Assembly: GCF_009914755.1 (NCBI RefSeq)
Contig: NC_060927.1
Direction: 5' to 3' (one strand)
Length of the DNA stretch: 64,000 nucleotides
From: the human T2T-CHM13v2.0 reference genome, Homo sapiens
The number at the start of each line of letters is the position of its first letter. Position 1 is the first letter of the stretch. A program made the translations under genes and the position numbers. Of the stretch, positions 13,391 to 59,777 are shown piece after piece. The notes below the pieces were generated by a model. That model was not told where the DNA came from. It made no database searches and was given only the letters and a program-made list of their open reading frames with translations.

Positions 13391-14820
13391 AAAGGCTGAC
13401 CTTCAGAGAGACGGGTTCTAAAGGAGACTACTTCCCTCTTCTAGCTTGCCATGGAGTCTTGGTCAAAGCATTCTTTCTCTGAACTTCATTTTCTCTTGTG
13501 AGGTACAAAGCAAATTATTTTTGCTGGTAACTATTTTACAGGGATGTAAACGCAGGATATCAACACAGCATGAGCAGCAGGTCTGACCTTGGGGAGTTTC
13601 CTGCCAGCCAGTCCACGATCCCTATGACCCTCCTCTCCCTCCTCGGCTGTGCTGGGCACACCTCCTGCACTGCACCATGTCCTCTCAGAAGGCTGAGCTG
13701 CACTCTGCTGGGATGAGATTGCTCCAAACCTGGCAATGCTTATTTATTCCTTTAATATCTTTGTGCTTACAAACAGCACTGTATATGAGAAATGGCAGGC
13801 CCTTCATTTTATACAAAATGTGAGGAATCTTATGAGCATGGATTTCATAGCTGAATCCACATTTATCTTCTTCTGAACATGGTATTAAACAGTATCTACA
13901 GGGGTTCAGACATACAGTGCAGAATGACAGTACATTACATGCTTCCTTCTGCACAGAAGCTTCCATTGGCCCAGCTGATCCCGGAGGAAAGAGACGTTTC
14001 CTGAGGCACTTGTTGAAGTCTTCTTTGCTATGTGCATTTATTATGAAATACAATTTTGTTTCCACATTCTGACAAGACACAGTAATAAAGTCTGCAATGG
14101 AAATCTGCATGGTAATTTGCATAAATTGACTCAAGATTCTCTTCTCAGGAAAAGAAATAATGAAAAGGCATGTTACGTGCGTCTTCTTTTAGCCTTGGCC
14201 AGGCCTGGGCCCAGGGCTGGGGAAGCATCCATAAGTGGCAGAAAGCAGCTGGGCATGACAAGCCTTTGACAATGAAGTTGCTGTTTGTGCTCTGCACCAC
14301 TAACCATTAAATGAAAGTATCAGGGTAAAGTCATGTAAATTAGCTTGCAAATGAGCCTGCTGAAACTTCAGGTTCCAGACTGGCAAGTGGGTGCTTTGGA
14401 GAGATGAGACAGCAGTCTCTGGCAAATAGGCTGGGCATATCCTTGCCAGAAGCGCAGTAATGCGCCCTGGGGGAGGGGATGTTGGCTCAGAAGGCCACAG
14501 TACGGGTACTTGCATTCTTCCAGATACCTCAGTTTCAAAGTCTGTATGGTCCTGGAGGCCACTTTTCTCCCAATGGAGAGTGGCTTGTACTTTAGTCACC
14601 ACCCAATTTAAATATGTGATTGCTCTTTTATTTCCTGACTGTGGTCTGAAAACAACATACACCTTCAAATTTTAAATAAGGTTAAATTTCATCAATATCA
14701 GTGGGTCCCTTCAAAAGCTACCCATAATGTGCAAGGTCGTGTGGCCTGAAGCTCCCTGAGAGGCCTCCCAAAGGGTGACAAATGGATTCATGTGTGCCAG
14801 CCCTCCCCTCAACTCTTATA

Positions 14821-15948
14821 GCAAAAGATACTCCAGGTGTCGGACTTTTGAGGGCATCTAAGAACTTACTTATGGTAACCTACAAAATGAATTAGGAAAG
14901 ATTACTAAAGCCTGGAGCAGAGAACTGCATCCTGAGTCCATTCCACTTATTAAATGTATCAGGAGCTACTGGTGGGCTCACCCAGCACCCATTGGCAACC
15001 TCCTACTCCCTTGCTTGACTACTTTAGACTGTAAAAGCTAAATTTGGCTTTCCCAGCCTCTCTAGAGGCTAACGGTAATGGTGTGACTCAATTCTGGCCA
15101 ATAAGACACAGGAAGCAGTCTGCTGGAGCGGGGAGGAACTCCAGGGAAGCTCTTGCTTTTTCTGCCTTGAATGTGGATGTGATGTCTGGAGCAGCAACAG
15201 CCAGCACGCACGAAGATGAGAACCCACAGGCCACGACGGCAGAATGGAAAAAGCAATAGTCCAGGGGCCTGATGGTAGCACCACTCAGTGTGCCAACCAC
15301 ATGACTTCTTGCACCTACAAAATTAAAACTCTCCTTCATTTATGCCACTGTTCATCAGCTTTCTGTACTAGGAGGGGACTACATTTCTAATTTGCATGTG
15401 CTGACAAAGAAGTGGACGGGAGGACATAGGAGAGGAGGGAGAGAAAGAAAGGATGTTAGAGCCTGGGCAGTGTGGTTGGCACACTGAGTGGTGGTACACC
15501 AGGCCCCTGGACTATTGCTTATTCTGTTCTGCTGTCGTGGCCCATGGGTTCTCATCTTTGTACAGACTGTCTGTTGCTGCTCCAGACATCACATCCACAT
15601 TCAAGGCAGAAAAAGCAAGCAAGAGCTTCCCTGGAATCCTTCCCCCCAAGCAGACTGCTGCTTGTGTCTTATTGGCCAGAATTGAGTCATATCATTACTC
15701 TTAGCCTCTAGAGAGGCTGGGAAAGCCAAATTTAGCTTTTACAGTCTCTAATCAAGCGAGGGAGTAGGAGGTTGCCAATGGGTACTGGGTGAGCCCACCA
15801 GTAGCTCCTGATACATTTAATGAGTGGAATGGACTCAGGATGCAGTTCTCTGCTCCAGGCTTTAGTAATCTTTCCTAATTCATTTTGTAGTTACCATAAG
15901 TAAGTTCTTAGATGCCCTCAAAAGTCCAACGCCTGGAGTATCTTCTGC
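14821..15948. repeat. Long inverted repeat: arms 14821-15301 and 15471-15948, spacer 15302-15470
   Basis: The reverse complement of the right arm aligns along the whole left arm. Mirror ORFs on opposite strands (15088..15339 minus vs 15453..15704 plus) share peptide sequence. Confidence 0.96.
14960..15395 (+). mobile_element. ERVL LTR (LTR33/LTR16-like); its 5' ~340 bp is included in the inverted duplication
   Basis: TTTCCCAGCCTC..TGTGACTCAATTCTGGCCAAT..TGCCTTGAATGTGGATGTGATGTCTGGAGC; the LTR 3' end (TTTATGCCACTG..TTTCTGT) lies in the spacer. Confidence 0.6.
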
Positions 15949-17546
15949 CGGGTCAATGTTCAGAGGGAACACCTGGATGACTTGCAGTGCCCCAGTGGGT
16001 CTCTGAGGCAGGGTCATCTTGCCAGAGTGATTGGCATTCAGATTTCACGACATAAGAGTGTCACCTCATATTGTGACCCCAGAACATAATGTCTGCAAAA
16101 AATGAAACTCTACTCTATTAATATAAAAAATATCCTCATGTTGCTAGAGTTAACCGAGGACTGCAGTCCAGTGCTCTGCCCGAAGTCTATGGGGTTGAGC
16201 ATCATTTGGCAGAGCTGCAAAGCACAGCACAAGTGCACATGCAGGGATGGTCGGGACACTGTGGAAAGTTGTCATTTGTTTCACTTTATCACTATTATCT
16301 TGGTTTGTTGCAGGGTTTCTGTACAGTAATGCACATTTCTATCAACAGTGGTTTTGGCCCATAATTTTCCATCACCTCGACTTTAATACCTATATGAGCC
16401 ATAGTTCAAATACAAATTAATTACATTCCTACTTCCAAAGTTTAAGGCCACTGGTTTAGGTGATAGACGGGCTAAATTCCATCTGAATAATTTCCAGCTT
16501 AAAAAAAAGAGTAATACTAAGAAACTAAAAAGCTCGGCCAGGGTCTCCCAGCGAAGTGGGACTTGAACCTGGGGCTTAAACCTAGGCCTCTTTTTGAAGG
16601 GAAAAAAAAAAAAAAAAAAAAAAGGACTGAGGCATAGGGGACATTCTGAATCCTCCTTGGCGTGTGCCCTCACTCTGACCACCTCTACCAGGGCAGAAGA
16701 TCCTGTCCCATCTCCCCCAGGTGCTGGGGACGTGCGGCATTTTAGATTCTGTGGGTAAAAGATCCCTTCTGGCACTCTGCCTCCGTTCTACATTCCATTA
16801 GAGAAAACGCACCCATTTTTAGGGCTTTAGGAATCTAGATTTGCCCAGTCTCTCACAGGCTGGCCTGATAGAACAGCCATTTGCAAGCATTTTGGCTGTT
16901 TGATCATTACCTCCCACTGGACTCTTCCTTTTTCTTTGTATTGATGGCACTGATATTCTTCCAGCATTTCTAGACAGAAACCTGGGGCGCATTCAGGCCT
17001 CTTCCTCTTCTCTATGTAACCCACAGACACACTGTTCGTTGGCCCCTTCCACTTCCTGTGCCATCTCTCCTAGGGCCCTCGCTCACCTCCCACACAGCCC
17101 TGCATGGTTCCTCCCTTGCCCCTGCCCTCCTTGCCCTTCCACACACAGCTGTATCTGAGTCTGTGTGCCCCGCCTCAGCTGCCACCCCTGGTCCCGGCCC
17201 AGCCCCTCCAGGCCTGCCTCCCACAAACTCCTTATCTTTGATCCCATCAGTGTCTGGGTCAGGAACCCTCCATGGCGCACCCTTCCTACCCAGGGATCCC
17301 AACCCGCCCTCGGGCCTTCCACAGTCCCAGTCACTGGGGCCAACTCACCCACCAGGCACGAGGGGCACAGAGCCCAGTGCCCGTAAGACACTTAAGGGCC
17401 AAGGAAAATGTTTCCATTTTAATTTCTCTTAAAATCAGGAGAAGAAATGACTATAATTATAATGAATCCAGCCTGAATTACATTCATCTCTATACCAATG
17501 TAGCTGTAAAAATATAATTCTTAACATGTTTTTAAAGGAAGAGACC

Positions 17547-17914
17547 TGTATTTGTTTCCTAGGCCTGCCATAACAAAGTACCACAGACTGGATGGCTTCA
17601 ACTACAGTCATCTCCTCACAGCTCTGGAGGCTGGAGTCTGAGACTGAGGTGTAGGCACAATTGGCTTCTTGAGAGGCCCTCCCTGGCTTACAGATGGCTG
17701 TCCCTTCCTGTGTCCTCACATTGTCTTTCTCTGTGAATGTCAATGTCCTCATCTCCTCTTCTTATAAGGACACCAGTCATATTGAACTAGGGCCACCCTA
17801 ATAATCTCATTTTACTTCTGTAGAGACCCTATCTTTATCTACAGTCCCATGCTGCGATACTTGGGACCAGAACTTCGATGCAGGAATTTTGAGGAGACAC
17901 AATTCAGCCCATGT
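17547..17914 (-). mobile_element. MLT1B-like MaLR solo LTR
   Basis: TGTATTTGTTTCCTAGG..GCCATAACAAAGTACCACAGACTGG...TCTTATAAGGACACCAGTCATATTG. Confidence 0.82.
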
Positions 17915-18129
17915 TAGGGCCCATGAAGCGAAATGCCTGAGGCCCATGAAAGTCAAAATGCAGCCCTGCCAACAGCCCACTCACAGGCCCCACTACTGCC
18001 CTCCACTCCAACATGCCGAGCTTTTCAGCGTCTTAGTACTGCATTTTTTTAACCTGGAAATTAATCAGATGGAATTTAACCCCTGTATCATCTAGACCAG
18101 TGGCCTACTTTAGAGGTAGGAATGTAGCA

Positions 18130-18452
18130 AATATGTATGTATGTATGTATTTATTAATTGACTGACTGATTGAAATAGGGTCTTGCTCTGTGACCCAGGC
18201 TGGAGTGCAGTGGCATGATCATGGCTCACTGCAGCCTTGACCTCACAGGCTCAAGCAATCCTCCCATCTCAGCCTCCTGAGTAGCTGGGACCACAGGCTC
18301 ATGCCACTATATACAACTAATTTTTAAAAAATTTATAATAACAGGGTTTCGTTATCTTGACCAGACTGGTCTTGAATTCCTGGCCTCAAGCAATCCTCTG
18401 GCCTTGGCCTCCCGAAGTGCTGGGATTACAGGTGTGAACCCCCACCCTCAGC
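18130..18452 (-). mobile_element. AluJ-type SINE with (TATG)n tail
   Basis: GGCTGGAGTGCAGTGGCATGATCATGGCTCACTGCAGCCTTGACCTC. Confidence 0.9.
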
Positions 18453-19309
18453 TGTAAATTTATATTTAAACCGTAGCTCATGTAGGTCTTAAAGTCTAGA
18501 TGATGGAAAATTACACCAAGAAAAAAGTGCTCAGTAACCTCAGAATCTTGCCGGAAGTCCTACAGGTGTCTCTTTTCACGCCCCTTTTCTATTCCTGGGT
18601 TGGGGGTGGGTGTCAGGGTCCAGTGTCCATGAGTGTGTGAGTGTGTCCACGGGGAACCTTCTGGCTTGATCCCCACTCAGGTCTGTTTTCATCATTGGGT
18701 CCTACCTCACCTACACCAGCAAAGGCAGTGCGAGGGCTTTTTAGGCCCGAGTCTCTGTTTGTTAAGGTCATGCTGCCAAGGCTGGCAACCCCCTGGGCCA
18801 CCTGAGAATGTGCTGACCTGGAAAGAGATAGCAGAGAACCAAATACCATGTTGAATAAAGCATAGCCTTCCATGCACAGTGACCTCTCCTGTTTGTCCCC
18901 TCCCTAAGCAGCTGGGATGTGCTGTGTGTGGAGCTCAGCTCCTCTCAGAAGGGCAAGATCACTGGGGAGGGGCAGGTGCTGATTTATGGGCTGAGCAGCC
19001 AGATAAGTGGCCTGCAGACACAATGGCCAGGCCCCAGGAAACACTCATATTTATTTCATTAAATCAACGTACAAAATGTTACACAAAGAAATGATCTGGA
19101 GACACCTTGTGAGAATAAAAAGACATGTGGCCAAGAAAGGATCCCGGGGGAAATGGCCTCACCAGGTCGAGATGCTGGGCAGGAGGCACGTGAAGGGCCG
19201 GAGGGGCTCGGAGCCTGCAGGGGCTATGCTGGGGGGTGCGGAGGTGCCCAAGCTGAGGAATAGGCCAGAAGGTCCAGTCCCCATTGGGATCAGACTGGGA
19301 GGTACTAGG

Positions 19310-19730
19310 ATTTTGGAGAGAGTTGAAGGGTATCCATCCCCAAATTCATGCCCACTTGGAACTTCAGAATATGAGCTTATTTGAAAATTGCAGTTTTGGA
19401 CATACGATTAATTAAGGATCTTGAGAGAAAAAATCATCCAGAATTTAGGGTGGGTCCTTAAATCCAGTGACTGGTGTCCTCTTAAGAAGAGGTGAGGACA
19501 CAGAGAGACAGGAGGCCTGCTGAAGACAGAGGCGGAGAGTGGAGTGATACAGCCACTAGCCGAGGAAGGCCCGGAGGCACTGGAAGCTGGGGGGATTCTC
19601 TCCCAGAGCCTTCTGAGAACAAGGCCCTCCATGCCTTGATTTTGGACTTCAACCTCCAGAACAGTAAGAAAATAAACTTCTGTTGTTTTAAGGCACTCTG
19701 CGGCAATTTGTTAAGGCAGCCCCAGGAGAA
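19310..19730 (+). mobile_element. MLT1C-like MaLR solo LTR
   Basis: CCCCAAATTCATGCCCAC..GAACTTCAGAATATGA...CCTCCAGAACAGTAAGAAAATAAACTTCTGTTGTTTTAAG. Confidence 0.82.
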
Positions 19731-22619
19731 GAGAGAGGAAAGCCTCAGGGCGGAGCGGCAGGAATGCAGTGAGGATCACCTGCAAGGCCAGAGCATCTCA
19801 GGCAACCCCTTGGCCTGGGAGGGCAAGGAGGCAGCCACTCTGTTCCCAGGCTCTGTGGGACCCAGGAAAGGATCCAGCGCAGGCAGAGCTTCACAGGCCT
19901 CCAGAAATGCTCCTCCACTCTGAGAGTGTGTCCTCCTGAGAGCAGCTGGATGAGCTCTGGCAGGCCAGGGACCTGCTCCCAGGGACAGCCCGTTAAGTCA
20001 GTGGTTTCCTAATTTGTGCCATGGTGTGAGGCCCAGGGACAAGCCAGTGGCTCTAAGTGCATCACAATCACTGCTGAGGCTTTAAGCATGCTAATACCCG
20101 AGCCCGTGAATCTCGCAAAAGGTGATGCTAACAGGCAGCCAGGAGTGATAGAGGGCCCATGAGAGACCGGAGAAGAGTGCTGCTACCACCAAATCCTCCC
20201 CCTCCATCCCCAGCAGCACCTGCAGAGGCTGAACCCTTCCATGGTGGCATGAGTACAGGTTTCACACAGGCGGCTCACAGACCAGGCCTGCAGAAGGGGA
20301 AGGGGGCTGGCCCCAAAGACAGCCAAGTCTCATCACAATGCACATACTGGAAGGTTTTTTTCTATCATAAATTTTGAAAATTACTTAGTTGGGGTTTTAT
20401 ATGAGAGAACCACTGCAGACATGAATCTCATCTGGCTGTGACTCTTGTTTTTTTACTTCTTCAAGTGAGTGGATTTAGATGAGGTGATGGGCAGGGTGTT
20501 GAGAGGCCAGAGAGTACATGTGTCATGAGAACACATGTGTGTATGTGTGTTTGGGGGTGAGGAGGTAAGTGTGAGGCAAGAGGAGGTAGAAGACCTGCTC
20601 CCCTGAGGCATCTCACGGGGCCTACCAGGTGGACAAAAAGTCTTGAGAGGTCTGTAGAACCCAGCTCCACACACCCAGGTCCTCATGCCAGCCCCTCAGG
20701 GTCTCCTGCATGTTCAGTTTTAGACCGAGAAAGAACTCACCAGCTGTCACTGAGGATAGGGTTAAACGCCCCCTCCCTGTCCTTCATGCCCTGGCTGAAG
20801 GCAGGGCCAGATTCTGTGGCCAGGCCACTTTCTTCTGCCTCTCCAAACATAGAGTAGGCATTTGACAAACATCTTTTGTCAGAATGAGTGAACGAGAGGG
20901 GAGTAGTGGGGCCAGAGACAGAAAGTGTGGGATGGAAAGAGGGAAGGAGGGGTAGATTCCATTCTAGGAACTGTCTGGGCACCTCAGCCAATCAAGGCAA
21001 GACAGCTCTGCCAGGTTGTACTGCTGGAAGGATGTCTGAAGGGGTGGTGGGGAGTGATTGCTGTGCAGGGGCACAACTTGGGGTGAGGTAAGCTGAATCC
21101 CCAAAGACCCTGGGGATCTTGTCTACTTCTCGAATGCCTCTGCCACCATGTTAGGAAAAACAAACAAAATAACATTTCCCCTTCTCCATCTCCAGAGAAT
21201 TCATTAAAATGAGCCTCTGTATACACAGAATTGGAGCCCTGGTCTCCCAGCCTAATTACCATTTTTAAGAGCACTGGGAAAGGAATTCCACCTGCTGCAA
21301 TATTGAAAAAAAAAAAAAGAGAAAGCCTGCGATGGGGAGGGCAGTCCTCTCTGAGGTTTCTCTCCTCTTGTCACCACACTGGGTCCTTGAGGCCTCTTGA
21401 TCTGATGGGTCTAAAACCCGAGGCCAACTCTCCATGCTGTTTTTTTTGTGTGTGTGCCAGCAGGCACTGGTGATACCAACTATGGTCAGGCCCTGTGCTA
21501 GACTCATGAATGCAGTGGTGGGTCCCAGAGGGTCCTGGCCTCAGCCAAGCACAGAGCCCAGCTCAGAGCCAGATGCACACAGGAGCTACTGCACAGTTGA
21601 GAGGCTAAACCAGCCCTGAGGATGATGCTATAGGAAAGATGGTCACGGAGGGGACAGAGGATGAAAGGGCCTCGCTGCTCAGACCAAACATGTGCTCTGG
21701 GCCTTGATGCATCCAGAGAATTCTCGCAGCAGAGAAGAGAGGAAAGGGCATTCCGGCAGAGGCAATGACATGAGTCAAAGTGTGGAGGCATAACAGTGTC
21801 ACTCCAAGGGCAGTAGGAGCAGGGAAGTCGGCTGGACCACAGGATGGGGGACAAGCAGTAGGCAATGGGAGACGACGCTGAACATGGAGGTAGGGCGAGA
21901 TTTTGAGGAACTTGAATGACATGGGGAGGAGATGAGGCTTTGATCCATACTAATGGGACCCACTGCACAGGCCTGGGGGCCCCCTTTGTCACCCCCTTGC
22001 CACTGCCAAGAACACCAACCAACCAAGAGTCTCACTGTTTTCAATGGGACACTAACAAGAAGCATTATATGTAACTTAATAGTAAGAAATCAAAATAATA
22101 TATGAGATCATTCATACACACACATGCATGCACAAAAATAAATGAATACCAAGTCAGACTTCAGAACTAAGTCTGTTGCAGCTGTCATCTTGAATTCAAA
22201 CCGATCCAGTAGAACTCCCCTCATTAGGAGGACAGGCTTGGTGCTACAAAGCCCTGGCCCAGAGAGGATACAACAAAGACAAAGTGTGACCAAGGTGAAC
22301 ATCCCACAGTCCACACCTGAGGCTGTGCACATCAGCCAGGGCCCCTCTCCCAGAGCCTCTGTCAATTCCTATGGTCAGTTTCACCAAGTCCACTGGCTAG
22401 CCAGTATTTCAGACCATAGCAGAGTAGAAGCAGAGGTAAAGTAAAAATTGAGACCACAGCAAAGAAAGAGTAAAAATGAGAGAGAGGCAGACAGAGGGGC
22501 TGTATTTAAGGCAAGGAGGATAATTGGTCCAGAGGGAGACAGACAGACTAAAAAGTAGATACAGAGCTGCAGTCTGCAGTGAGCTGTGCTCCACATACTC
22601 TGTAAATCCAGAAAGGAGG

Positions 22620-22950
22620 AGGGACGTCTTAGAACAGCAGTCCCCGCTGTGTTCTATAAATATTTGTCCTTTGAGAACTCGATAACCAAGGGATTCCATG
22701 ATCAAATACATCTGAGAGATCCTACACACTATATCCCTCTTTCAGTAAATCAAAACTATACACTGATATAGTCAGGCTCCGAGAAGCCCTGCAGCACAGC
22801 AGTAGATTTACTTTTGTTCACCCAGTGTTCCCTAAATCTGTACAAGCTCTGAACCCACCACCCCCTACCTCAACTTTTTTTCAAGTAACACCTACCAACA
22901 CCTCTTGGAATTAGTATCTCACAGAATCCACTAGTGTAGAAAAATGCATT
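22620..22950. mobile_element. MER103-like hAT-Charlie remnant
   Basis: AAGGGATTCCATGATCAAATA...AACACCTACCAACACCTCTTGGAATTAGT. Confidence 0.45.
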
Positions 22951-23293
22951 ATCATTTGTCTCTATCTAAGGAATAAAACAGCACCTTTTTTCTTTAAAAG
23001 AGTTGAAATGATTAAGTTTGGTGCCTTTTGCAAAAAGCTATAATTGCATGGAAAATTCACTTTACTTGCACAAACCTCCCTACTCACCAGTGGTGCCAGG
23101 AAAGTGACATGTTATTAACCCCCAAGAACTTGGCCTTCAGGGCACCTGGAACCACCTCTGGGCCTCTGGTTGACCCCAGACTACGCCTCCAGGGCCAGGA
23201 GCTGCAGAGGTCACCGCATCCAGCCTCCTGCCCATGTAGGGCAGGGCAAGCTCATCGCACCAGCCTCTCCAGGGAAGGAAGTGCCTCAGCAAC

Positions 23294-23365
23294 CGTGTGT
23301 GTGTGTGTGCGCGCGTGTGTGTGTTTGTGTGCGTGTGTGGGGGGGGGCGGGGGTGAGAGAGAGAG
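23294..23365. repeat. Compound (TG)n/(GC)n/(G)n/(GA)n microsatellite
   Basis: GTGTGTGTGTGTGTGCGCGCGTGTGTGTG...GGGGGGGGG..GAGAGAGAGA. Confidence 0.9.
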
Positions 23366-23758
23366 AAGGTCCCAGCAAACATAACCATTACAACCATGCA
23401 TGAGGCGCAAGTTCGCCTAACACTCTCATTTTCATCTTGTTCCTCTTCCACATGATGACTCCCCTGAACAACCAAACACTATCATGGTTTGGATCTGCCT
23501 GTGAGGAACAAGAGAACACAGACTCTCTCTATTTTTAGAATTTTCCTCTGAAAAATGTTCCCTTTACCGAGGGGTGGATTTTCAGAAGGGCTCAAGCTCT
23601 TTACAGGGATGGGGCCAGTATAGAGGTGGGAAGCTCCTCCATAGCAAAATGACAGCCTGGGAACCCAGGGCCATTCCACTCCCACCCCAGCTCAGCAAGT
23701 TTCAAAGAGAGGTCAGCCACTGCCAGATGATATGGAGGGTGAGCACCCAGGACCTCAC

Positions 23759-23817
23759 CTGGTATGTGTTGTCGAAGCTGTCGTACATGAACCTCGTAAT
23801 CAGAGACGTCTTCCCGA
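23759..23817 (-). CDS. RAB6B: RAB6B coding exon 2 (59 nt; (V)GKTSLITRFMYDSFDNTYQ)
   Basis: Acceptor TTGTTTTGCAG/TC and donor CAG/GTGAGG; the peptide is visible inside ORF 23702..24073; completes GxxxxGKT. Confidence 0.97.
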
Positions 23818-24339
23818 CTGCAAAACAACAAGGAGAGAGGTGTTCAGTCATGGCATCTGAGCTAGGCTCTTCTAAACACACTGCATTTGAAGAAAAGATA
23901 ACAAAACCAAAAAGCACAGGGGAAAGGCCGAGTTGCAGAAATACAGAAGTGGGAGACAGGCCCCTGCTAGGGACCCCGTGGTGAGGCCACCGAGTCTCTA
24001 TACCAGGTGGGCTGAGGGCTGTTCCTGCCAGGCACCAGGGTGCTGCCAAGGAGGAGGTATCCCACTGCCCCATGGATTTCCACTACCCAAATCCAGGTCT
24101 TCCTTGACCCAGGAGAACCCAGCTGATGCAAGAACCATCTATAAAGAATCAAGGTAAGTGGGTGCAAAACAGGAGGCTCCTCTCGTACTTGCCCATGTAC
24201 ACCTTGTTGTTGGTCATACACTGGAATGGAAGCCTGCCCTTTATTTCCTGTTAATTCAGCCTGAAGATTGGTGGGGACAGTGGCTTTCTAAGGAACCAGG
24301 GGCGGGGAGGCAAATGTCATTTCCCCATGTCTCTCATGG

Positions 24340-24513
24340 ACAGGACTATTCTTTGTGTATCTGACCGTCCAGCTCATTGCAGGATGTTTAGCATACCTGG
24401 AACCCCGCTAGGTAAATGCCAGGAGGATCCCCAGTCACTGTGACAACTGTAGACTCACTCACACATCTGCAAATGCCCTGTAGGGGCAGTGACACCCCAA
24501 CTGAGAACAACTG
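24340..24513. mobile_element. MER20-like hAT-Charlie element
   Basis: CATTGCAGGATGTTTAGCA..AATGCCAG..GTGACAAC..CAAATGCCC..CCCCAACTGAGAACAACTG. Confidence 0.65.
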
Positions 24514-25403
24514 GAACAGCTGAGAGAAAACAGGACGTCTCTTGGGAATCCTACAAATGCTGCTAATTTCCCAAATTGTAGAATTTGGCTTCTGACCTCA
24601 CCCTGTGCAGCTCCCCTGGGGCCTGGCAGTGACAGAAATGCCAACTGCTGCATTTCTAACCATCTGGGGTGGGGGAAGAGGGCAGTCAAGGGACATTCAT
24701 TAGGACGGGCCCTGCACGGATGCCTGTCTGTACTGTCCTATCATGTCTCTGCCATGACCCTGGGAGGCTCAGTGGGGAATCTGCCCAGCTGTGCTGGCTC
24801 AGAGCCCTTTCTGCACTAGGCTTCAGGAGGACAGGTAATGCTGGCAGGCAAAACAAAAGTACCCTCACCCTCCCATTTCCCAGGCTGGCAGTACATCCAC
24901 AAGCTGTGCCTGGTGGGGTGGCTGGTCACTCCCTGGAGGGAGCAGGACAAGCCAACAGGACCCCTTGGCAAAGGCCCTTTACCAGCTTTGAGGCCTCAAG
25001 AGTGCACCACATAACAGACAAGTGCACTCAGCTCCCAGCAGCCAGCATTTGCTATGGGAAAGATGATCTTCTACCCAGAAGGAGCATCTGACTGACTGTG
25101 TTTGGGCTAAATTCAGAAGACCCCATCTTTAACCCAGATTTGGTTAGCTGGATTGAAATCCTATTGGGGTACTTTTCAGCTGTGTCACCTTGAGGTTATC
25201 ACCATCCCAGGACCTCAGTTCCTCATTTGAAAATGAGTATATTAACATCAAAGACTTCAGGGGGCTGTAGTAAGAATTAAATCAGGTAAAAAGTACAAGG
25301 CACATGGGAAATGCTTAAAAGTGGAAGGAGGCAGCAGGTAACTGAGCAAGGTAAGGCAGTTTCCAGAATATCAGATGGAAAAAATATATGTATCACCACC
25401 ACC

Positions 25404-26779
25404 CCCAGCCCTCAACTCTGGGCGGCACTCAAGTCATCCCCATTTCACACAATGGGCAATTAGGTGGCAGCTCCTGGCCCAGGGTCAGAGCTGAGTGGGG
25501 CTGGGATGTGGCTGCCTGACCAGGTGCTCAGTTCCTATCCAGGTCCTCCTTGATAGGTCATGCTGGGTTCAGGATTCTGCCAGGTCAGGATTCTGCCCTT
25601 GTTGGAGAACGCTGACCACCACGCCAACTCTGGGTGGTCAGTGCCAGAAGTGAATTGTAGGGTACCAGCTGGTGTCAGAACAGCCCCATTTTTAAAACAA
25701 CATTTCTGGGGTGAGCAGAAATGTGCCCAAGATCTCTTCTAATTTTACCTGGAAGCAGCCTTTTCTAAACTTCTGATAGAAACGAGGCTATAAAGAGCAT
25801 TCTGACTGCTTTAAATCTCCCCTTAAATTTCACATGAAGGTGAGAAGTAGGGGGCCTCCCATACCTGGAGGATCAGCTCTGAGGCCATGAGGCCCCAGGC
25901 ACCTGGCTGAGGACCACAGAGGGGAAAGTGGGGCAACCCTGAACTAGCAAGAGGCAGATGCATTGGGGAAAACACAGCATCCTCCTTTTTGAAAGGGAGT
26001 GGAAAGTTACTGCCTCCTTGGGAAGAGAGGCATCCCAGGGCACGCTGGTCACTTCCCTAGGCAGCGACGCTCTGCGTCTTGCACCTTAGGGAAAGGTGCA
26101 TGCATCAGGGATCAGGGTGGGGAGATGGATGGGAAGACACTGAGTCTCTTCTCCCCAGGGCCTCCAAGCACAGAGAGGAGAGAAAGCAGGGTCCCAAAAA
26201 GCCACTAAGGGCACAGAAATTTCATGGAGTAGCTGAAAACTTGGAAATCCCTGCAACACCTTCTAATGCCAAGGTGCCTCTCCATGAGACACCAGCCACT
26301 GGCAGTGGATTAGCACTTGCTCACAGGTCTAGGGGGCAGGAAAACATCCCCTGAAAGTTTTTTACTGGGAATTGTGCAGGAGGAGCTTTTAGGTGTGGGG
26401 TCCTGGCCAGAGCTGATATTTTCTATGCATTCCCGCAGTCACCATAATAGGCAACACATGACCCCAGCATTTACAGAGCATGTTCCAGGCACATAGTAGG
26501 GGCTGAGTCAGGCACAGAATTGACATGAGAACAGTAAACAGAGGAGACGTGGCACCTGCCCACTGAAGCTTGCAGCAACACTGGGTACCATACCTCCCAG
26601 CCCTCAACTCTGGGTGGCACTAATGTCATCCACATTTCACACAACGGGCATTAAGGTGACAGCTCCTGCACCAGGGTCAGAGCTGAGTGGGGCTGGGATG
26701 TGGCTGCATGACCAGGTGCTCAGTTCTTATCCGGGTACTCCTTGATAGATCATGCTGGGTTCAGAATTCTGCCAGGTCA
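25404..26779 (+). repeat. 184-bp direct duplication (25404-25587 and 26596-26779)
   Basis: Both copies run CCCAGCCCTCAACTCTGGG...ATTCTGCCAGGTCA, are colinear and equal in length, and are roughly 90% identical by eye. Confidence 0.93.
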
Positions 26780-28700
26780 TTATTGCCACTGCTGTGGCGC
26801 TCCAGGGAACAGCCCGTCCCAGGCCAAGTCTGGAATTGGGGGCCTTTCCCCACTTGGTAGGGGCTTGATCCAATCTGAAAGGTCAGAAACTGGTCACTGA
26901 GGTGCCCTGGAAGTGCTTTGTGGGGTACAAGGAGGGCTCAGAAAGTGAGGGTTTTAACATCTGGGGCCCAGCACCCCAACTCAGGCTTGAAATGGATGAG
27001 GGACTCATTCTTACTTTGCTGCAAAAGGCAATGACTTTACACTATTCCTCTAGGCTCATTTTTCTCATTTCTCGGAGCTGAAGCCTTCTTCCCCACCTCA
27101 GAGCCCGCTAAGACTACCCATGCCCTCGTCACTTCTGCCAGGGTAATGTGTGTTACACCCCTGCAGTGGTATCCGAGACCCTTGTCCTCCATGCTTTGTC
27201 TCTGGGGAAGTGTCTGCAGACCTGAGGCAGAGCTTATTAAAAGGAGCTCCTCTTGTCCATTTCTGCCCAGCCTCTGCCCATGGTATCACATAAAGGAGCT
27301 AGGTGGGTAAGGGGTTGTGCTGTGCTAAGCTCCTCTCCCCTCTAAATGGCAAAGACCCCTTCCTCAGCCCACACCTGCCCTCAACAACTGCCCGGGGTGG
27401 AAGGTGCTAGAACCTGCAAATGGAGAACTTGCACACTGCATCTACCTGGCTACTTTCTCAGTCCCCCAACCATAAGGGGTGGGCAGAACCCATCCCGAGC
27501 CACCTGACCAGGCACTCCCACTCAGCCTCAGAGGAGCAGTAGCATGGGGCATCCCAGCAGGCCTGCAGCCTGGCAGGTGGAAGAGCCAGGAGCTCCTCCT
27601 GTGTCCCCCTGCCTCGCAACAGCTGCCGGAGTTTCTGCGGGAGCTGTCCTCCTGCCAGCTCTGTTCTCAAGGTCACACCGCTGTGCTTCTACCGCAGCTC
27701 TCGGACACCACTGCAGCAAAGAGGAGCTTTTTCTGAGGACAAAGATTCAGCTCCACTGGCAGGTTTTATTAAAAATAAGCAGGCAAATCATTATTGAGCT
27801 TTTTTATTTTCTCTCTGCTCATGGCTCAGCAATGTTCTTGTAATCTTCTGGTAGTTTAGTCCCACATGATTAAGCAAGGAGATGCATTTCTCCTTTTTCA
27901 ACCAAATGAGGGTGAGAAAATTCATTACTGAGCATTTACCAGGAGATGCTAGAAAGAAGGAGAGGAAACTCAAACTCTTACTGGGCCTCTATTCAGCAGC
28001 AGATGAGAATTTGGCACTTTATTTAGGTTCTCTCATTTAATCCTCATCACGATCCAATGAGTTAGTTATTATTCCAAGGTCACAGAGCTGGGAAGTGGTG
28101 GAGCTGGGATAGGAGCACAGATTTGAGCCAGAGTCGATGCCTCATCACTCTGCTGTGCTGGTTTATGTAAAGGTCTGACAGTAGCAAAGCGGCAGATCCC
28201 AAAGGCAGGGGTGCAGGTGGCCGGGCAGTCAGGACACCTGCAAGGAGGAGGCAGGGCAGCCACGGGACTGGGAAAGGCTGTGGGTGGGGGTGAAGGGGAA
28301 TTCCAGACAGAGGGAACAATGTGTGCAAAGGCACAGAGACAGGGAGAGAAAACACTCGTGAGAAGAAACAGAAGGCAACAGGCTAGGTTGCTATGGGGGA
28401 CACACTTGGAGGCCCCTCAGACTGAGGTTCATCTCAGGGCAAGTGAAGCCAGACAGTGTGTGAGGAAGAGTGAGTAGCAAACATTGTTCATGGAAGCTCC
28501 ATGTGGCTGTCAGGTTGATTTAAGCCAAACCCATCTCTGGGGCCAGTTGTGGAGGGAGGGAGGGGCAGACAGAGAGAAGTACAAAGGCAGGGGCAGGGGC
28601 CACATGGCACAGGCCATGTCAGCCACATGGAGGAGCATGGATTCTCGCCCAAGGGCAGTGGGAGCTTCAGAAAGGATCTTCAGCAGGATGGTGTGAACAG

Positions 28701-43829: not shown

Positions 43830-44720
43830 GGGGCCTCATATAACTAATGACCAGAGGACGGGGGTGCTCACACACCCAGTGCCCAGAGGACAGGACACAA
43901 ACACACCTAATGACAGAGAATGGAGGACTCACATACCCAGTGCCCAAAGGACAGGGGGCCCCACATATCCCAGTAACCAGAGGATGAGGGGCTCACACAC
44001 CAATGATCAGAGGATGGGGGGCTCACACACCAATGATCAAAGGACGGGGGATTCACACACCAAATAATCAGAGGACGGGGGGGCTTATATATCCCAATAA
44101 CCAGAGGATGGGGGGCTCACACACCAATGATGAGAGGACGGGGGACTCACACACCAAATAACCAGAGGACGGCGGGGCTCATATATCCCAATAACCAGAG
44201 GATGGGGGGCTCACACACCAATGATCAGAGAATGGGGAACTCACACACCAAATGACCAGAGGATGGGGGACTCACACACCCAATGACCAGAGGATGGGGA
44301 ACTCACACATCCAATGGCTAGAGGATGGGCTGCTCACACACCAATGATCAGAGGACAAGGGGCTCACACATCCAACAGCCAGAGGATGGGCTGCTCGCAC
44401 ACTAATGATTAGAGGACGGGAACTCACACACCCAATGACCAGAGGAGGGAGGGCTCACATACCCAATGACCAGAGTATAGGGGACTCACACACCTAATGA
44501 CCAGAGGACGGGGGACTCACACACCCAATGACCAGAGGACGGGGGACTCACACATCCAATGGCCAGAGGATGGGCTGCTCACACACTAATGATCAGAGGA
44601 CGGGAACTCACATACCCAGTGACCAGAGGACAGAGGACTTACACACCCAATGACCAGAGGATGGGGGACTCACACATCCAATGACCAGAGGATAGGGGAG
44701 CTCACACACCCAATGGCCAG
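43830..44720 (+). repeat. Minisatellite/VNTR, ~30-31 bp unit (consensus about CACACACCCAATGACCAGAGGAYGGGGGRCT), ~29 copies
   Basis: Tandem units are directly visible; ORF 43759..44067 shows the periodic HTNDQRMGGS; left-hand units are more degenerate. Confidence 0.95.
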
Positions 44721-44745
44721 TTTCTGGTCATATGCCACATCCAAC
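44710..44745 (-). CDS. RAB6B: Candidate alternative RAB6B exon: either a 36-nt in-frame cassette (GWMWHMTRNWPL) or an alternative start (MWHMTRNWPL, ATG at 44740)
   Basis: Pyrimidine tract CTCCTCCCTCTCTGCTACCTGCTCAG/, then GTTGG ATG TGG CAT ATG ACC AGA AAC TGG CCA TTG G/GTGTGT. It ends in phase 1, as exon 1 does, so it joins exon 2 in frame. Confidence 0.5.
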
Positions 44746-47329
44746 CTGAGCAGGTAGCAGAGAGGGAGGAGTCCGGAAGGGCTGCCAGCAGTCCCGCAGA
44801 ACACCCATGGAAGGCCAGAGCAGTCAGGGAACCCAGGGCACTGTGGAGATAGGATGGACAGGGGAGCTTAAAGGGGCTAGCTTTGGTCCATCTGCGTACA
44901 GTGTGGCCTTGCAGAGAGAGACAATAGTCCCTCCCCTACAATCCTTCATTGTTCCTGAGGCCTCATTCTAAGAGAAAGAATCAAGAAAATATACATCTGC
45001 AGTGGAGCTGAGCTTCAGAACTGGAAGGAAGCTTAAGTTTACAAGCCCTCTCTATAAATTCCATCCTCGGAACGTTTCTGTTCTGACCTAGTTCAGCCAC
45101 CTGGATCTCCTGCCTCCAATCAGAACACATTCTGCCTTCACCTTCTAATCCATGAGCATGTCCCTCTGGGTCAAAACTCCCCAGTGGATCCCCACTGCCT
45201 GCAGGGAGGTCCTCCAGGGCCTGACCCTACTGACTCCCCCAGGCTCAACCCCTTCTCCCCCACTATTTCTCCACCCGCACCAGAATCCCACCACCCTGAA
45301 CCACACCCGATTCCCCAGAAACCCCAAGCCTTTCACTGCCTGGGCATGGTCAGGCCCTCTGCCCTCAGTGCCTCCCCTTCTTTGCTGGTGAGTTCCTGCT
45401 CACTATGCAAAACCTCCTCCAGAAAGCCTTCCCTGACTCCTCCAAGCACATCACGCCCATAGCCTTGCTTGTGTATGTAATACTAATCTTAATACTGGCT
45501 GAGATTTGTTGCCTGCTTATTGTGGGCCAAGTACTACCGACCTCACACATCTGAAGGCATATAACCCCAATGCTGCAAAGCCTCTGCCCTTATACTCCAC
45601 CCTGGCTGAGCTCCTTACAGGAAGTAACGGAGCTGTGAAGATGAGGTACTCTTCCCCTGAGCAGGTTTGGTGGCCCCAGAGGAGCAGGCATGGTGAGTCT
45701 GTCCCACTTTTTGCCAGCCTGTCTCTGAGCAGGGATGGGGAGCTGGGGAAAACACTGGCCAGGGAGTCAAAGGGTCCTTCCATCTGTGTAAAAGCCTTCA
45801 CCTGGCAGACCTTCGCTTTCTTTATAAAATGGGATGAGCAGCTCTTCCTGCCAGATCACGAGGATGTAGACCCCACAGTTCACAATACAGAAATGATCAA
45901 TGATTCTCAAAATCTCGCACCCTACTTCTGCAATGAGGGAGGAGATGGAGATTGCTGTTACTATTTCATTAACAAAATTACCTATCACCTGAGCTTTTAT
46001 CATGTGAGCCTTAATCACATGCCATGTATAGATGTACTTGATCTTCCTGGAACCCCAACAAGGTAATGATCAACTTCCTGCACAGGTGAGGAAAATGAGC
46101 ACAGGTGGTGCCATTGCACACCAACACCATCCATTCAGCAGAGGGGTGGGCTGAGGTGGAAGCCCAGGATGCAGGAGGACCAATATGGTGATGGGGTGGG
46201 GGTGGGAGCTGGGGCTGGGGCCGGGTCTCTAAGCCCTCCTAGGTCTGCTGGGGACACCATATACCCCTCTTGGCTCTGTCCTTTCCCTGCCCTCCCAGCT
46301 TACCCCTCCCACCAGGCTGTGGAAAGGGGTGCCCCTGGGCTAGGAGCACCTGGGAGGTGTCACCTGCCCTGTCGTCCTAATCATGGTTCCTCTCTGTGTG
46401 GAAGACACACCTCCTGGAAGCAGAAGTGCAGGATAGCCCCATCCTTGTTGCTTGGCAACCAGAGCCAAGCACATCTTCAGAAGAAGGGAGCCAGCATGCC
46501 CCTCCCCCACATTGTGCCCCCAGGGAGGGTTGCACTCAGGTGTAGGGGGCCAGGAATGCCTCCCAGGAGAGGAGGTGGTAGGCTGGAGAAGATCCTGCAT
46601 GTGGGACCCAGGACAGTTCTGGGGGCAACAGTCGCAGAGCCCCTGATCCCCCATCTCACTCCTGCAGCCCCTCTCACCAGCAGCATGCTTGTCTCCAGGC
46701 TGGGAGTGTTATTGGCTTGGCCTCATACTCAGAGCTGGCACTGAATTGCAGAACCAGAGTTAGAGCTCCACTGGCCCAAGGGGTCACCCAGCCCAGTAGC
46801 CTTGAGGGGATACACGGAGAAAGCCAGAGATGGGCTGGGGCTTATCCAACATACAGCCAGCCAGTGACAGACCGGGAATAGAATCAGGGTCTTCAGGGCC
46901 CTGGTATCTCCAAGCCAGAAGGGAGGATGTGGCCAGGAAAGGGTTACCCCAGAGTAGGTGGGAACCAGCCATTTAGTTTAATTGGTTCTTCCCTGGTTAG
47001 TAATTAGTTCTCAGCTAGAACCATGGCAGTGGGCTGAGGGCTGACTTGGGAGGGATTTAGCTGCCCCCATAGGCTCTATCAACTCCCTTCAAAGCACCAC
47101 AAATGGAAGAACAGGGTGCCTGCTGTGCAAGACCAGCTCCAGCAGCTCCCACACGGAGACCCTGCTTCCCTCCTCCCTGCTCAGGGCCCCGCAGGTTCCT
47201 CTTTAGCAAAGAGCTTGGCACAAACACTCCCCACGAGTCATGCACAGCAGACCTCGTGTCCAGAAGACCTCAGTGTTCTTCTGTCTCCTCCGCTCCAGTC
47301 CTAGGCCAGAAGCTGCCTTTGAGGCAAGA

Positions 47330-48618: not shown

Positions 48619-48912
48619 TTTGGGATGGAGTTTTGCTCTGTTGCCCAGGGTGGAGTGCAGTGGTGCCATCTCGGCTCACTGAAACCTCCGCCTCCCGGGT
48701 TCAAGCGATTCTCCTGCCTCAGGTTCCCAAGTAGCTGGGATTATAGGCATGCGCCACCATGCCTGGCTAATGTTTGTACTTCTTAGTAGAGACAGGATTT
48801 TGCCACGTTGGCCAGGCTGGTCTCGAACTCCTGACCTCAAGTGATCTACCCACCTTGCCACCTTGGTCTCCCAAAGTGCTGGGATTACAGGCGTAAGCCA
48901 CCACGCCCAGCC
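48568..48912 (-). mobile_element. AluS-type SINE whose tail has become (TA)n
   Basis: Alu body at 48620-48912, (TA) run at 48568-48613, TSD TTATTTTGTT on both sides. Confidence 0.94.
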
Positions 48913-49491: not shown

Positions 49492-49728
49492 AGCTGGGCA
49501 CCATGGCTCACACCCATAATCCCAGCACTCTGGGAGGCTGAGGTGGGCAGATCACTTGAGGTCAGAAGTTCGAGACCAGCCTGGCCAACATAGTGAAACC
49601 CCATCTCTACTAAAAATACAAAAATTAGCCGGGCGTATTGGTGTGGGCCTGTAGTCCCAGCTACTCGGGAGGCTGAGGCACAAGAATTGCTTGAACCCGG
49701 GAGGCGGAGGTTGCAGTAAGCCAAGATT
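49492..49728 (+). mobile_element. 3'-truncated AluS-type SINE
   Basis: Alu sequence stops at GCAGTAAGCCAAGATT with no A tail. Confidence 0.92.
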
Positions 49729-57372: not shown

Positions 57373-59125
<1,753 letters not shown>

Positions 59126-59777
59126 TTTTTTTCACATAATTCTATGGAGATTCACCCAGGTTATTGTTTGTAGCAATAGTTAGCTCCCTTTTACTGCTGA
59201 GTAGCATTCAATAGTATGGACGTACAGTTTGTTTAACCACTCACCTGTGGAAAGGCATCTGAAATTATTTCCAGTTTGGGGCCATTACAAATAAAGCTGT
59301 TATGAACTATCATGTAGAGATTTTTGTGTGAAAGGAAGTTTTTATTTCTCCAGGATAAATGCCCAGGAGTGCACTTGCTGGGTCATATGCATGTTTGTTT
59401 TTTAAAGGAACTGCCAGACTTTTCCAGAGTGGTTCTACCACTTTCCACTCCCCACCAGCAATGGATGAGCGATCCAGCCTCTTCTCACCCTCATCAGCAT
59501 TTGCTGTTGTCAATATTTTAAGCCATTATGAGAGGAATGTAGTAATATCTCATTGTGGGTGGTTTTAATCTACATTTCCAATGACTAATGATGTTCAACA
59601 TATTTTCATGTGATTAATTGCCATCTGTATATCCTCTTAATGAAATGTCTGTTCATGTCTTTTGTCCATTTTTAAATTAGATTCTTTTCTTTACTGTTAA
59701 GTTTTGAGAGTTCTTTATGTATTCTAGATACTAGTTCTTTGTCAGATATGTGATTTACAAATATTTTTTCCCACTCT

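What the first reader, a model, noticed from the sequence alone, without database searches (positions are those of the whole stretch)
14821..15948. ~480-bp local inverted duplication predicted to form a long intronic RNA hairpin
Seen: arms 14821-15301 and 15471-15948 with a 169-bp spacer. Each arm contains ~140 bp of apparently non-repeat flank plus the 5' part of an old ERVL LTR, whose 3' end exists only once, in the spacer. This is therefore a true duplication (the right arm is the derived copy), not two independent insertions. Established: long intramolecular dsRNA in pre-mRNA is an ADAR substrate, and close inverted repeats favour cruciforms and inversion. Inference: a non-Alu editing hotspot or hairpin small-RNA source in a brain-enriched gene.
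Basis: partly seen in the sequence, partly recalled or inferred. Interest (0 to 1): 0.7.

Follow-up and report, generated by a model that had tools for sequence, protein, structure and literature searches.

The report
Old fold-back duplication in RAB6B intron
Two 91%-identical 480-base copies of one DNA stretch face each other inside an intron of the human gene RAB6B; they likely arose in one old copying error and are predicted to fold the pre-mRNA into a long hairpin that RNA-editing enzymes would likely mark, probably an ordinary by-product with no job of its own.

Summary
Observation confirmed: arms 14821-15301 and 15471-15948, 442 of 485 columns identical, 169-base spacer. Only these two full-length copies were found in the genome, so this is a local duplication, not two insertions. 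An old dispersed-repeat (LTR-like) core lies inside the arms; that its 3' end lies in the spacer stayed unproven. Arm distance 0.071 suggests roughly 20-45 million years (rates assumed). The RAB6B-strand fold has 452 pairs and is the strongest inverted match in the 55 kb of the gene in view, but at about 94% paired it is under the >96% 'immunogenic' class. No sign of selection for pairing (12 G-U against 12 A-C). I found no editing, small-RNA or inversion record for it. Unexpectedly, the two RAB6B editing sites I could locate (neuronal nuclei, PMC9151768) map, through recalled coordinates, to a second, older inverted duplication 400 bases away. Cruciform and small-RNA readings are unlikely. 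Verdict: a strong but ordinary intronic inverted duplication, a likely passive ADAR substrate.

The parts
14821..15301 (.). Left arm of the inverted duplication (IR1), 481 bases; 3' arm of the predicted hairpin in RAB6B pre-mRNA (minus strand)
15302..15470 (.). Single-copy spacer, 169 bases; predicted loop (-32.5 kcal/mol alone). May hold the 3' end of the LTR-like element (unproven); ATTAAA at 15322
15471..15948 (.). Right arm of IR1, 478 bases; 5' arm of the predicted hairpin; likely the derived copy
14821..14965 (.). Outer part of the arm with no match elsewhere in the genome search (97% identical to its copy at 15805-15948): shows that flank was copied together with the repeat
15045..15203 (+). 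Core of an old dispersed repeat, LTR-like (ERVL LTR16/LTR33 type by recall); its copy lies at about 15568-15728 on the other strand
16362..16538 (.). Left arm of a second, older inverted duplication (IR2); overlaps a short element 16346-16453 bounded by CAGTGG ... CCACTG (hAT-Charlie-like ends by recall)
16391..16393 (-). Likely places of two published A-to-I sites (hg38 chr3:133857216 and 133857218); 16391 is a paired A in UAG, 16393 an A opposite C in the IR2 duplex. Mapping rests on recalled hg38 gene ends; 16393/16395 is the alternative fit
18015..18138 (.). Right arm of IR2, inner piece (81% to 16410-16538)
18139..18456 (-). Alu with its tail, inserted into the right arm of IR2 after the duplication
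18457..18513 (.). Right arm of IR2, outer piece (84% to 16362-16418); predicted partner of the edited adenosines

Best explanation
This is a 480-base local inverted duplication inside RAB6B intron 2, likely made by one fold-back template switch in a primate ancestor, and predicted to fold the nascent RNA into a 450-pair hairpin that ADAR likely edits as a passive, probably neutral substrate. Mechanism: a polymerase that had reached about 15470 would have turned back onto sequence at 15301, copied it in reverse to 14821, and resumed at what is now 15949 (a 3-2-1-4 / 1-4-3-2 event in the four-point model). The arms then drifted apart to 91%. Because the arms are 169 bases apart and far more stable than any Alu pair in view, the duplex should form during transcription, attract ADAR1/ADAR2 in neuronal nuclei, and be discarded with the 23-kb intron. 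Shown: the repeat, its two-copy status, its divergence, the computed fold. Inferred: origin, direction, age, folding in cells, editing, neutrality.
For: Two full-length copies only, unique flank included. Geometry matches the event types that 'generate single inverted repeats' (PMC7954356 passages). K2P 0.071 +/- 0.013 with 24 transitions and 8 transversions; 29-36 My at assumed rates of 1.0-1.25e-9 per site and year, 16 My at 2.2e-9. Sense-strand fold -892 kcal/mol, 452 arm-to-arm pairs, longest helix 67 pairs; strongest of 20 inverted self-matches in window 1-55051, -861 against -462 for the next and -394 for the nearest Alu pair. Edited human duplexes have medians of 297 bp, 31 contiguous pairs, -410 kcal/mol (PMC11838218 Table 1); this one exceeds all three. 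The intron is transcribed and edited in neuronal nuclei: 9 sites in glutamatergic, 4 in GABAergic, 0 in oligodendrocyte nuclei, two of them likely in the much weaker IR2 next door. Neutrality: the transitions split 12 G-U to 12 A-C on the sense strand, p = 1.0; arms lie 7.8 kb and 14 kb from the flanking exons (gene table); no Rfam match.
Against: No editing site was found in these arms in any supplement I could read; the only two located RAB6B sites map elsewhere. The copied tract (478) is far longer than the great-ape short-range switches (median 12, maximum 128; PMC7954356), so a longer-range repair route (MMBIR type) may fit better than a switch inside one fork. The LTR-end argument for direction failed to test. 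Divergence is uneven (6 events in the outer 191 bases, 32 in the inner 290), which a single clock does not predict; p = 0.006-0.03 uncorrected, but 0.23-0.75 once clustered changes are merged. No orthologous mammalian sequence was available, so age and neutrality are not tested directly.
Confidence: 0.7

Rival explanations
1. The duplication is older than its average divergence says, and the arms exchange sequence (gene conversion, or inversion of the spacer by crossover between arms); the outer 190 bases would be a converted tract.
For: Outer 191 bases differ at 3.1% of sites, inner 290 at 11%; minimum-events scan p = 0.0055, max-chi p = 0.027; 97% identity over the outer 142 bases.
Against: The signal fades when neighbouring changes are merged (multi-window p = 0.032, 0.23, 0.67, 0.75 for merging distances 1, 2, 4, 6); longest identical run 68, p = 0.10. 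No paper tying RAB6B to an inversion among 13 that hold both words (the one read, PMC9732337, concerns large duplications). 91% identity over 480 bases is a poor substrate for crossover (own knowledge).
Confidence: 0.15
2. The hairpin is a selected regulatory element of RAB6B: with the neighbouring IR2 it would recruit ADAR or other dsRNA-binding proteins, or slow transcription or splicing, tuning RAB6B in neurons.
For: Strongest duplex in an Alu-poor gene (Alu fraction 4.3%, one close inverted Alu pair); two RefSeq enhancers flank it (14049-14550, 16509-17123; gene table); neuron-biased editing of the gene, and up to 47-71% editing at a site likely in IR2.
Against: No bias towards pair-preserving changes (12:12); far from splice sites; neuron bias in editing is genome-wide (PMC9151768 passage); conserved duplexes are typically short and weak, median 65 bp (PMC11838218 Table 2); no paper holds RAB6B with editing terms.
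Confidence: 0.08
3. The hairpin is a source of small RNAs (endo-siRNA or microRNA-like).
For: Long stem with helices up to 67 pairs; long inverted repeats give siRNAs in flies and plants (PMC8728187 passage).
Against: No match to any of 4227 Rfam families in the window; no small-RNA gene in the gene table; expressed long hairpins are poorly processed into siRNA in mammalian somatic cells (abstract start of PMC3903663); an intron stays in the nucleus, away from Dicer (own knowledge).
Confidence: 0.04
4. The repeat acts at the DNA level as a cruciform or fragile site.
For: Long, close inverted arms.
Against: Cruciform extrusion starts at the centre and is disfavoured by spacers; inverted Alus stalled forks in eukaryotic cells with a 12-base spacer but not with 52 (PMC7999016 passages). 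Here the spacer is 169 and the arms differ by 9%.
Confidence: 0.02
5. Two independent insertions of the same LTR family in opposite orientation, or an assembly artefact.
For: The arms contain a dispersed repeat.
Against: Arms are 91% identical over 485 columns while the best other copy is 73-75% over 81-155 bases; flank with no other match is shared; an assembly error would give identical arms, not 38 differences with a transition bias.
Confidence: 0.01

Closest known systems
Inverted duplicated sequences in pre-mRNA (Barak et al. 2020, PMC7006430; parts 1-2 of 5 read)
   Same: Long reverse-complement match within one transcript, intronic, predicted duplex over 300 bp; such structures are tolerated in introns and absent from mature mRNA.
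   Different: Made by local duplication rather than by two repeat insertions; 91% identity puts it outside their class of 197 human structures over 300 bp and over 96% identity.
dsRNAscan human dsRNA catalogue (PMC11838218; passages read, tables closed)
   Same: Would be predicted by that method; longer, tighter and with a shorter loop than the median edited duplex. About 1 million predictions exceed 300 bp.
   Different: [quoted passage not shown] Whether the locus is listed as edited could not be seen.
Inverted Alu pairs (IRAlus), the standard ADAR substrate
   Same: Intramolecular intronic duplex expected to be edited promiscuously.
   Different: Not Alu; 1.6 times longer, 91% against 71-81% identity for the Alu pairs in this gene, about twice the pairing energy; much rarer (0 non-Alu against 51 Alu inverted pairs in 200 kb of background).
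Template-switch events of type 3-2-1-4 / 1-4-3-2 (Walker et al. 2021, PMC7954356; passages read)
   Same: One reverse-complement copy of nearby sequence giving a single inverted repeat with a spacer.
   Different: Copied tract 478 bases against a maximum of 128 in their great-ape set; far older; no ancestral sequence here to place the switch points or see microhomology.
Hairpin-RNA (long inverted repeat) siRNA loci of flies and plants (PMC8728187; passages read)
   Same: Long transcribed inverted repeat.
   Different: Intronic in a mammalian somatic gene; no small-RNA evidence seen.

Membership tests
Local inverted duplication (template-switch type) | Two nearby reverse-complement copies, more alike than any other copy in the genome, sharing non-repeat flank | tested here: met
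Local inverted duplication (template-switch type) | Outgroup has one copy, with switch points and microhomology recoverable | not testable with these tools
   no other mammalian genome is held (no relatives)
Intronic dsRNA, ADAR substrate | Both arms on one pre-mRNA, long duplex with more than 30 contiguous pairs | tested here: met
   gene table (intron between exons 23759-23817 and 784-837); 452 pairs, helices of 67, 63, 47, 42, 41; computed, not measured
Intronic dsRNA, ADAR substrate | A-to-G changes observed on both arms | tested here: inconclusive
   no site in the arms in readable supplements, but full lists were too large or cut; 2 of 9 glutamatergic RAB6B sites located, both likely in IR2
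Long, highly paired (putative MDA5) dsRNA | More than 300 bp and more than 96% paired or identical | tested here: not met
   length met; 91% identity, about 94% paired with G-U; cut-offs
ERVL solo LTR (LTR16/LTR33 type) | Similarity to dispersed copies of an old repeat | tested here: met
   five dispersed hits to 15045-15203; the family name is recalled, no repeat library was available
ERVL solo LTR (LTR16/LTR33 type) | Both LTR ends and target-site duplication placed, 3' end in the spacer | tested here: inconclusive
   no signal, positive control also failed
microRNA / endo-siRNA locus | Match to a curated small-RNA family | tested here: not met
   0 matches to 4227 Rfam families at gathering score
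microRNA / endo-siRNA locus | Phased 21-23 nt reads dependent on Drosha or Dicer | not testable with these tools
   no read data
Conserved structural RNA | Changes between arms favour retained pairing; covariation across species | tested here: not met
   12 G-U against 12 A-C on the sense strand; cross-species covariation not testable

The most novel reading that the evidence does not exclude
RAB6B intron 2 carries two back-to-back fold-back duplications of different ages that form a non-Alu ADAR landing pad between two enhancers: the very stable young hairpin recruits ADAR and drives the high (47-71%) neuronal editing of the weak older duplex beside it, while conversion between its arms keeps the stem from decaying, so that a copying error became a primate-specific regulator of a neuronal trafficking gene.
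Probability: 0.07. Interest if true: 0.6.

Novelty: new member of a known kind. Interest (0 to 1): 0.25.

Why it matters
If it is what I think, it matters little by itself: one more intronic duplex among about a million predicted ones over 300 bp. It is a clean example, though, that fold-back duplications rather than Alu pairs can supply the dominant dsRNA of an Alu-poor neuronal gene. It also poses a cheap test: a weak 18%-diverged duplex appears to be edited at up to 70% while its far stronger neighbour has no record I could find, which would reflect either read-mapping and reverse-transcription blind spots for tight hairpins or real ADAR selectivity.

Tried and rejected
Gene conversion: uneven divergence looked significant but not after merging clustered changes; left as a rival. 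Selection for pairing: no G-U excess. LTR 3' end in the spacer: pairwise tests against five dispersed copies gave nothing, nor did the control; one copy (L006) was used in the wrong orientation, so those rows are dropped and one search is the valid run. Base rate: only 200 kb of background (four 50-kb blocks), AT-richer than the window; 0 non-Alu inverted pairs and 4 non-Alu direct pair rows there, against 2 inverted and 2 direct in the window; too little to call the window a hotspot, and one of the two inverted pairs is the reason the window was picked. Literature: no paper with RAB6B + intron + A-to-I editing or RAB6B + editing sites; none of the 25 listed holds RAB6B; the RAB6B rows in PMC9732337 are 160-316 kb duplication calls, unrelated. 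Supplements without RAB6B: PMC12203800, PMC11208617, PMC3637798, PMC10081846. PMC9704047 gives per-gene hyper-editing counts for RAB6B but no positions. Right flank 15930-16360 and spacer gave no outside match, so no repeat spanning a junction could be used to fix the direction. The bacterial promoter scan has no bearing.

Full report
THE OBSERVATION. Self-comparison of the window gives 14821-15301 against 15948-15471, 485 columns, 90.9%; a global alignment has 442 matches, 32 substitutions and 6 indel events, and similarity ends sharply at both ends. The spacer is 169 bases. A search of the whole T2T genome returned 7 matches: the two arms and five hits of 33-81 bases on other chromosomes. 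The outer part of the arm matched only itself and the other arm, at 97%. The tool warns that its first look is loose, so this shows no close third copy, not absolute uniqueness. The pattern excludes chance, two independent insertions and an assembly error.

WHAT IS IN THE ARMS. Positions 15045-15203 align to the five dispersed hits, best 73% over 155 aligned bases, scores 64-101 against shuffle maxima of 28-34: an old interspersed repeat. I recognise it from memory as ERVL LTR16/LTR33-like; no repeat library was available to name it. The claim that the LTR's 3' end lies in the spacer is what makes the right arm 'derived'. I tested the spacer from both sides against the sequence downstream of the five copies: z = -0.16 to 0.30 from the left, 1.20 to 1.28 from the right, none significant, and the copies did not match each other significantly either. 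By eye the left arm continues into the spacer in register with L003, L005 and L007, and there is an ATTAAA at 15322. So the direction is plausible but unproven, and a later inversion of the spacer would flip it.

AGE AND ORIGIN. The arms differ by K2P 0.071 +/- 0.013 (24 transitions, 8 transversions). With assumed neutral rates of 1.0-1.25e-9 per site and year this is 29-36 My (range 18-48), with 2.2e-9 it is 16 My: most likely a monkey-ape ancestor. The layout is that of a 3-2-1-4 or 1-4-3-2 template switch, the types that generate single inverted repeats (PMC7954356, passages). The tract is longer than any in that study (median 12, maximum 128), so a longer-range repair switch is as likely. 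Without an outgroup the switch points and microhomology cannot be read.

THE RNA. Both arms lie in the 23-kb intron between RAB6B exons 23759-23817 and 784-837 (gene table), 7.8 kb and 14 kb from them. On the sense (minus) strand the region folds at -892 kcal/mol with 452 arm-to-arm pairs, 12 of them G-U, longest helix 67 pairs; 231 of 248 arm adenosines are paired. It is the strongest of 20 inverted self-matches in window 1-55051: -861 against -462 for the next (43 kb apart) and -394 for the closest Alu pair. The first 16.6 kb of the gene's 3' end lie outside the window and were not examined. Edited human duplexes have medians of 297 bp, 31 contiguous pairs and -410 kcal/mol (PMC11838218, Table 1), so editing is the expected fate. 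At about 94% paired it misses the >300 bp, >96% class (2,018 genome-wide; 197 within RefSeq transcripts by identity, PMC7006430), whereas about a million predicted duplexes exceed 300 bp.

IS IT EDITED? I found no record either way. No paper holds RAB6B together with 'A-to-I editing' and 'intron' or 'editing sites'. In PMC9151768 (passages and supplements; the full site lists are too large to read and file 2 is cut) RAB6B has 9 sites in glutamatergic, 4 in GABAergic and 0 in oligodendrocyte nuclei; two are given with positions: hg38 chr3:133857216 (31% and 6% in two data types) and 133857218 (47% and 71%), both labelled intronic, hAT-Charlie-DNA. No RAB6B row began with 133855 or 133856, where IR1 should lie. 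PMC9704047 lists RAB6B among hyper-edited genes (values 15.75 and 12.7 under 'Number of hyper-edited sites'), without positions; one file gave no answer. Four other supplements had no RAB6B. The unseen lists and REDIportal could settle the point. Absence is weak evidence here: tight hairpins hinder reverse transcription and near-identical arms are filtered by editing pipelines (own knowledge).

THE UNEXPECTED NEIGHBOUR. A second inverted duplication starts 414 bases to the right: 16362-16538 against 18015-18138 plus 18457-18513, 81-84% identical, again two copies only, K2P 0.179 +/- 0.037, its right arm split by an Alu. The recalled hg38 ends of RAB6B differ by 71,647, the gene length printed; anchoring on either end puts 133857216 at window 16385-16411. 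In that range the only T-n-T fits are 16391/16393 and 16393/16395. In the fold of 16300-18560, 16391 is a paired A in UAG and 16393 is an unpaired A facing C in the IR2 stem, both classic ADAR contexts (own knowledge). The left arm overlaps a short element 16346-16453 with CAGTGG ... CCACTG ends, which fits the hAT-Charlie label by recall. So the located RAB6B editing most likely belongs to IR2, not to the finding. This mapping is inference from recalled coordinates; gene lists bound it independently only to 15537-26855 (hand arithmetic). It does show that this intron is present and edited in neuronal nuclei, which raises the odds that the far stronger IR1 is edited too.

FUNCTION OR BY-PRODUCT. 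If pairing on the RAB6B strand were selected, transitions between the arms should favour G-U over A-C; they split 12 to 12. Divergence is uneven, 6 events in the outer 191 bases and 32 in the inner 290 (scan p = 0.0055, max-chi p = 0.027), but this falls to p = 0.23-0.75 when changes within 2-6 bases are merged, so conversion is possible, not shown. There is no Rfam match in the window. Expressed long hairpins are poorly diced in mammalian somatic cells (PMC3903663, abstract start only). A 169-base spacer and 9% mismatch argue against a cruciform: a 52-base spacer already removed fork stalling by inverted Alus in eukaryotic cells (PMC7999016, passages). The two RefSeq enhancers nearby do not overlap IR1.

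HOW COMMON. In 200 kb of blind background (four blocks) there were 0 non-Alu inverted pairs (at least 100 bases, at least 78%, gap up to 5 kb), 51 inverted Alu pairs and 4 non-Alu direct pair rows; the window has 2, 1 and 2 (plus a tandem array). The sample is small and AT-richer than the window. Such repeats are uncommon, but they belong to catalogued classes.

VERDICT. A real, old, two-copy fold-back duplication predicted to give the dominant duplex of RAB6B pre-mRNA; likely edited (my odds about 80%), likely without a selected role (about 85%). New member of a known kind; interest 0.25. The most useful by-product is the adjacent older duplication that appears to carry the gene's known neuronal editing sites.

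Noticed in passing
window 16362-16538 / 18015-18138 + 18457-18513: Second, older local inverted duplication (81-84%, K2P 0.18), two copies in the genome search, right arm split by an Alu; likely carries the published neuronal editing sites hg38 chr3:133857216 and 133857218.
   Followed up: yes
window 25404-25587 / 26596-26779: Local direct duplication, 184 bases at 91%, 1 kb apart, two copies in the genome search; similar age to the finding.
   Followed up: partly
window 57373-57677 / 58821-59128: Local direct duplication, 311 columns at 86%, upstream of RAB6B; contains an old dispersed repeat (eight other hits at 70-81%).
   Followed up: partly
window 43843-44720: Tandem array of a 31-base unit, about 28 copies, with 94- and 184-base higher-order periods, ending at the alternative exon 44710-44840; probably variable in length.
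   Followed up: no
window 16603-16626: Run of 24 A just after the inner end of the second inverted repeat, inside the RefSeq enhancer 16509-17123; origin not examined.
   Followed up: no
window about 17550-17915: Another old LTR-like element (MaLR type by recall) in the spacer of the second inverted repeat, with a weak inverted match to 19445-19500.
   Followed up: no
window 48668-48911 / 49493-49727: The only close inverted Alu pair in the gene (80%, 581 bases apart, -394 kcal/mol); a candidate for the remaining unlocated RAB6B editing sites.
   Followed up: partly
L025-L029 (G000:C2:50004898-50005285 / 50006846-50007239): In the background sample, a 394-base local direct duplication at 91%, 1.6 kb apart: duplications of this size and age are not peculiar to the window.
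   Followed up: no
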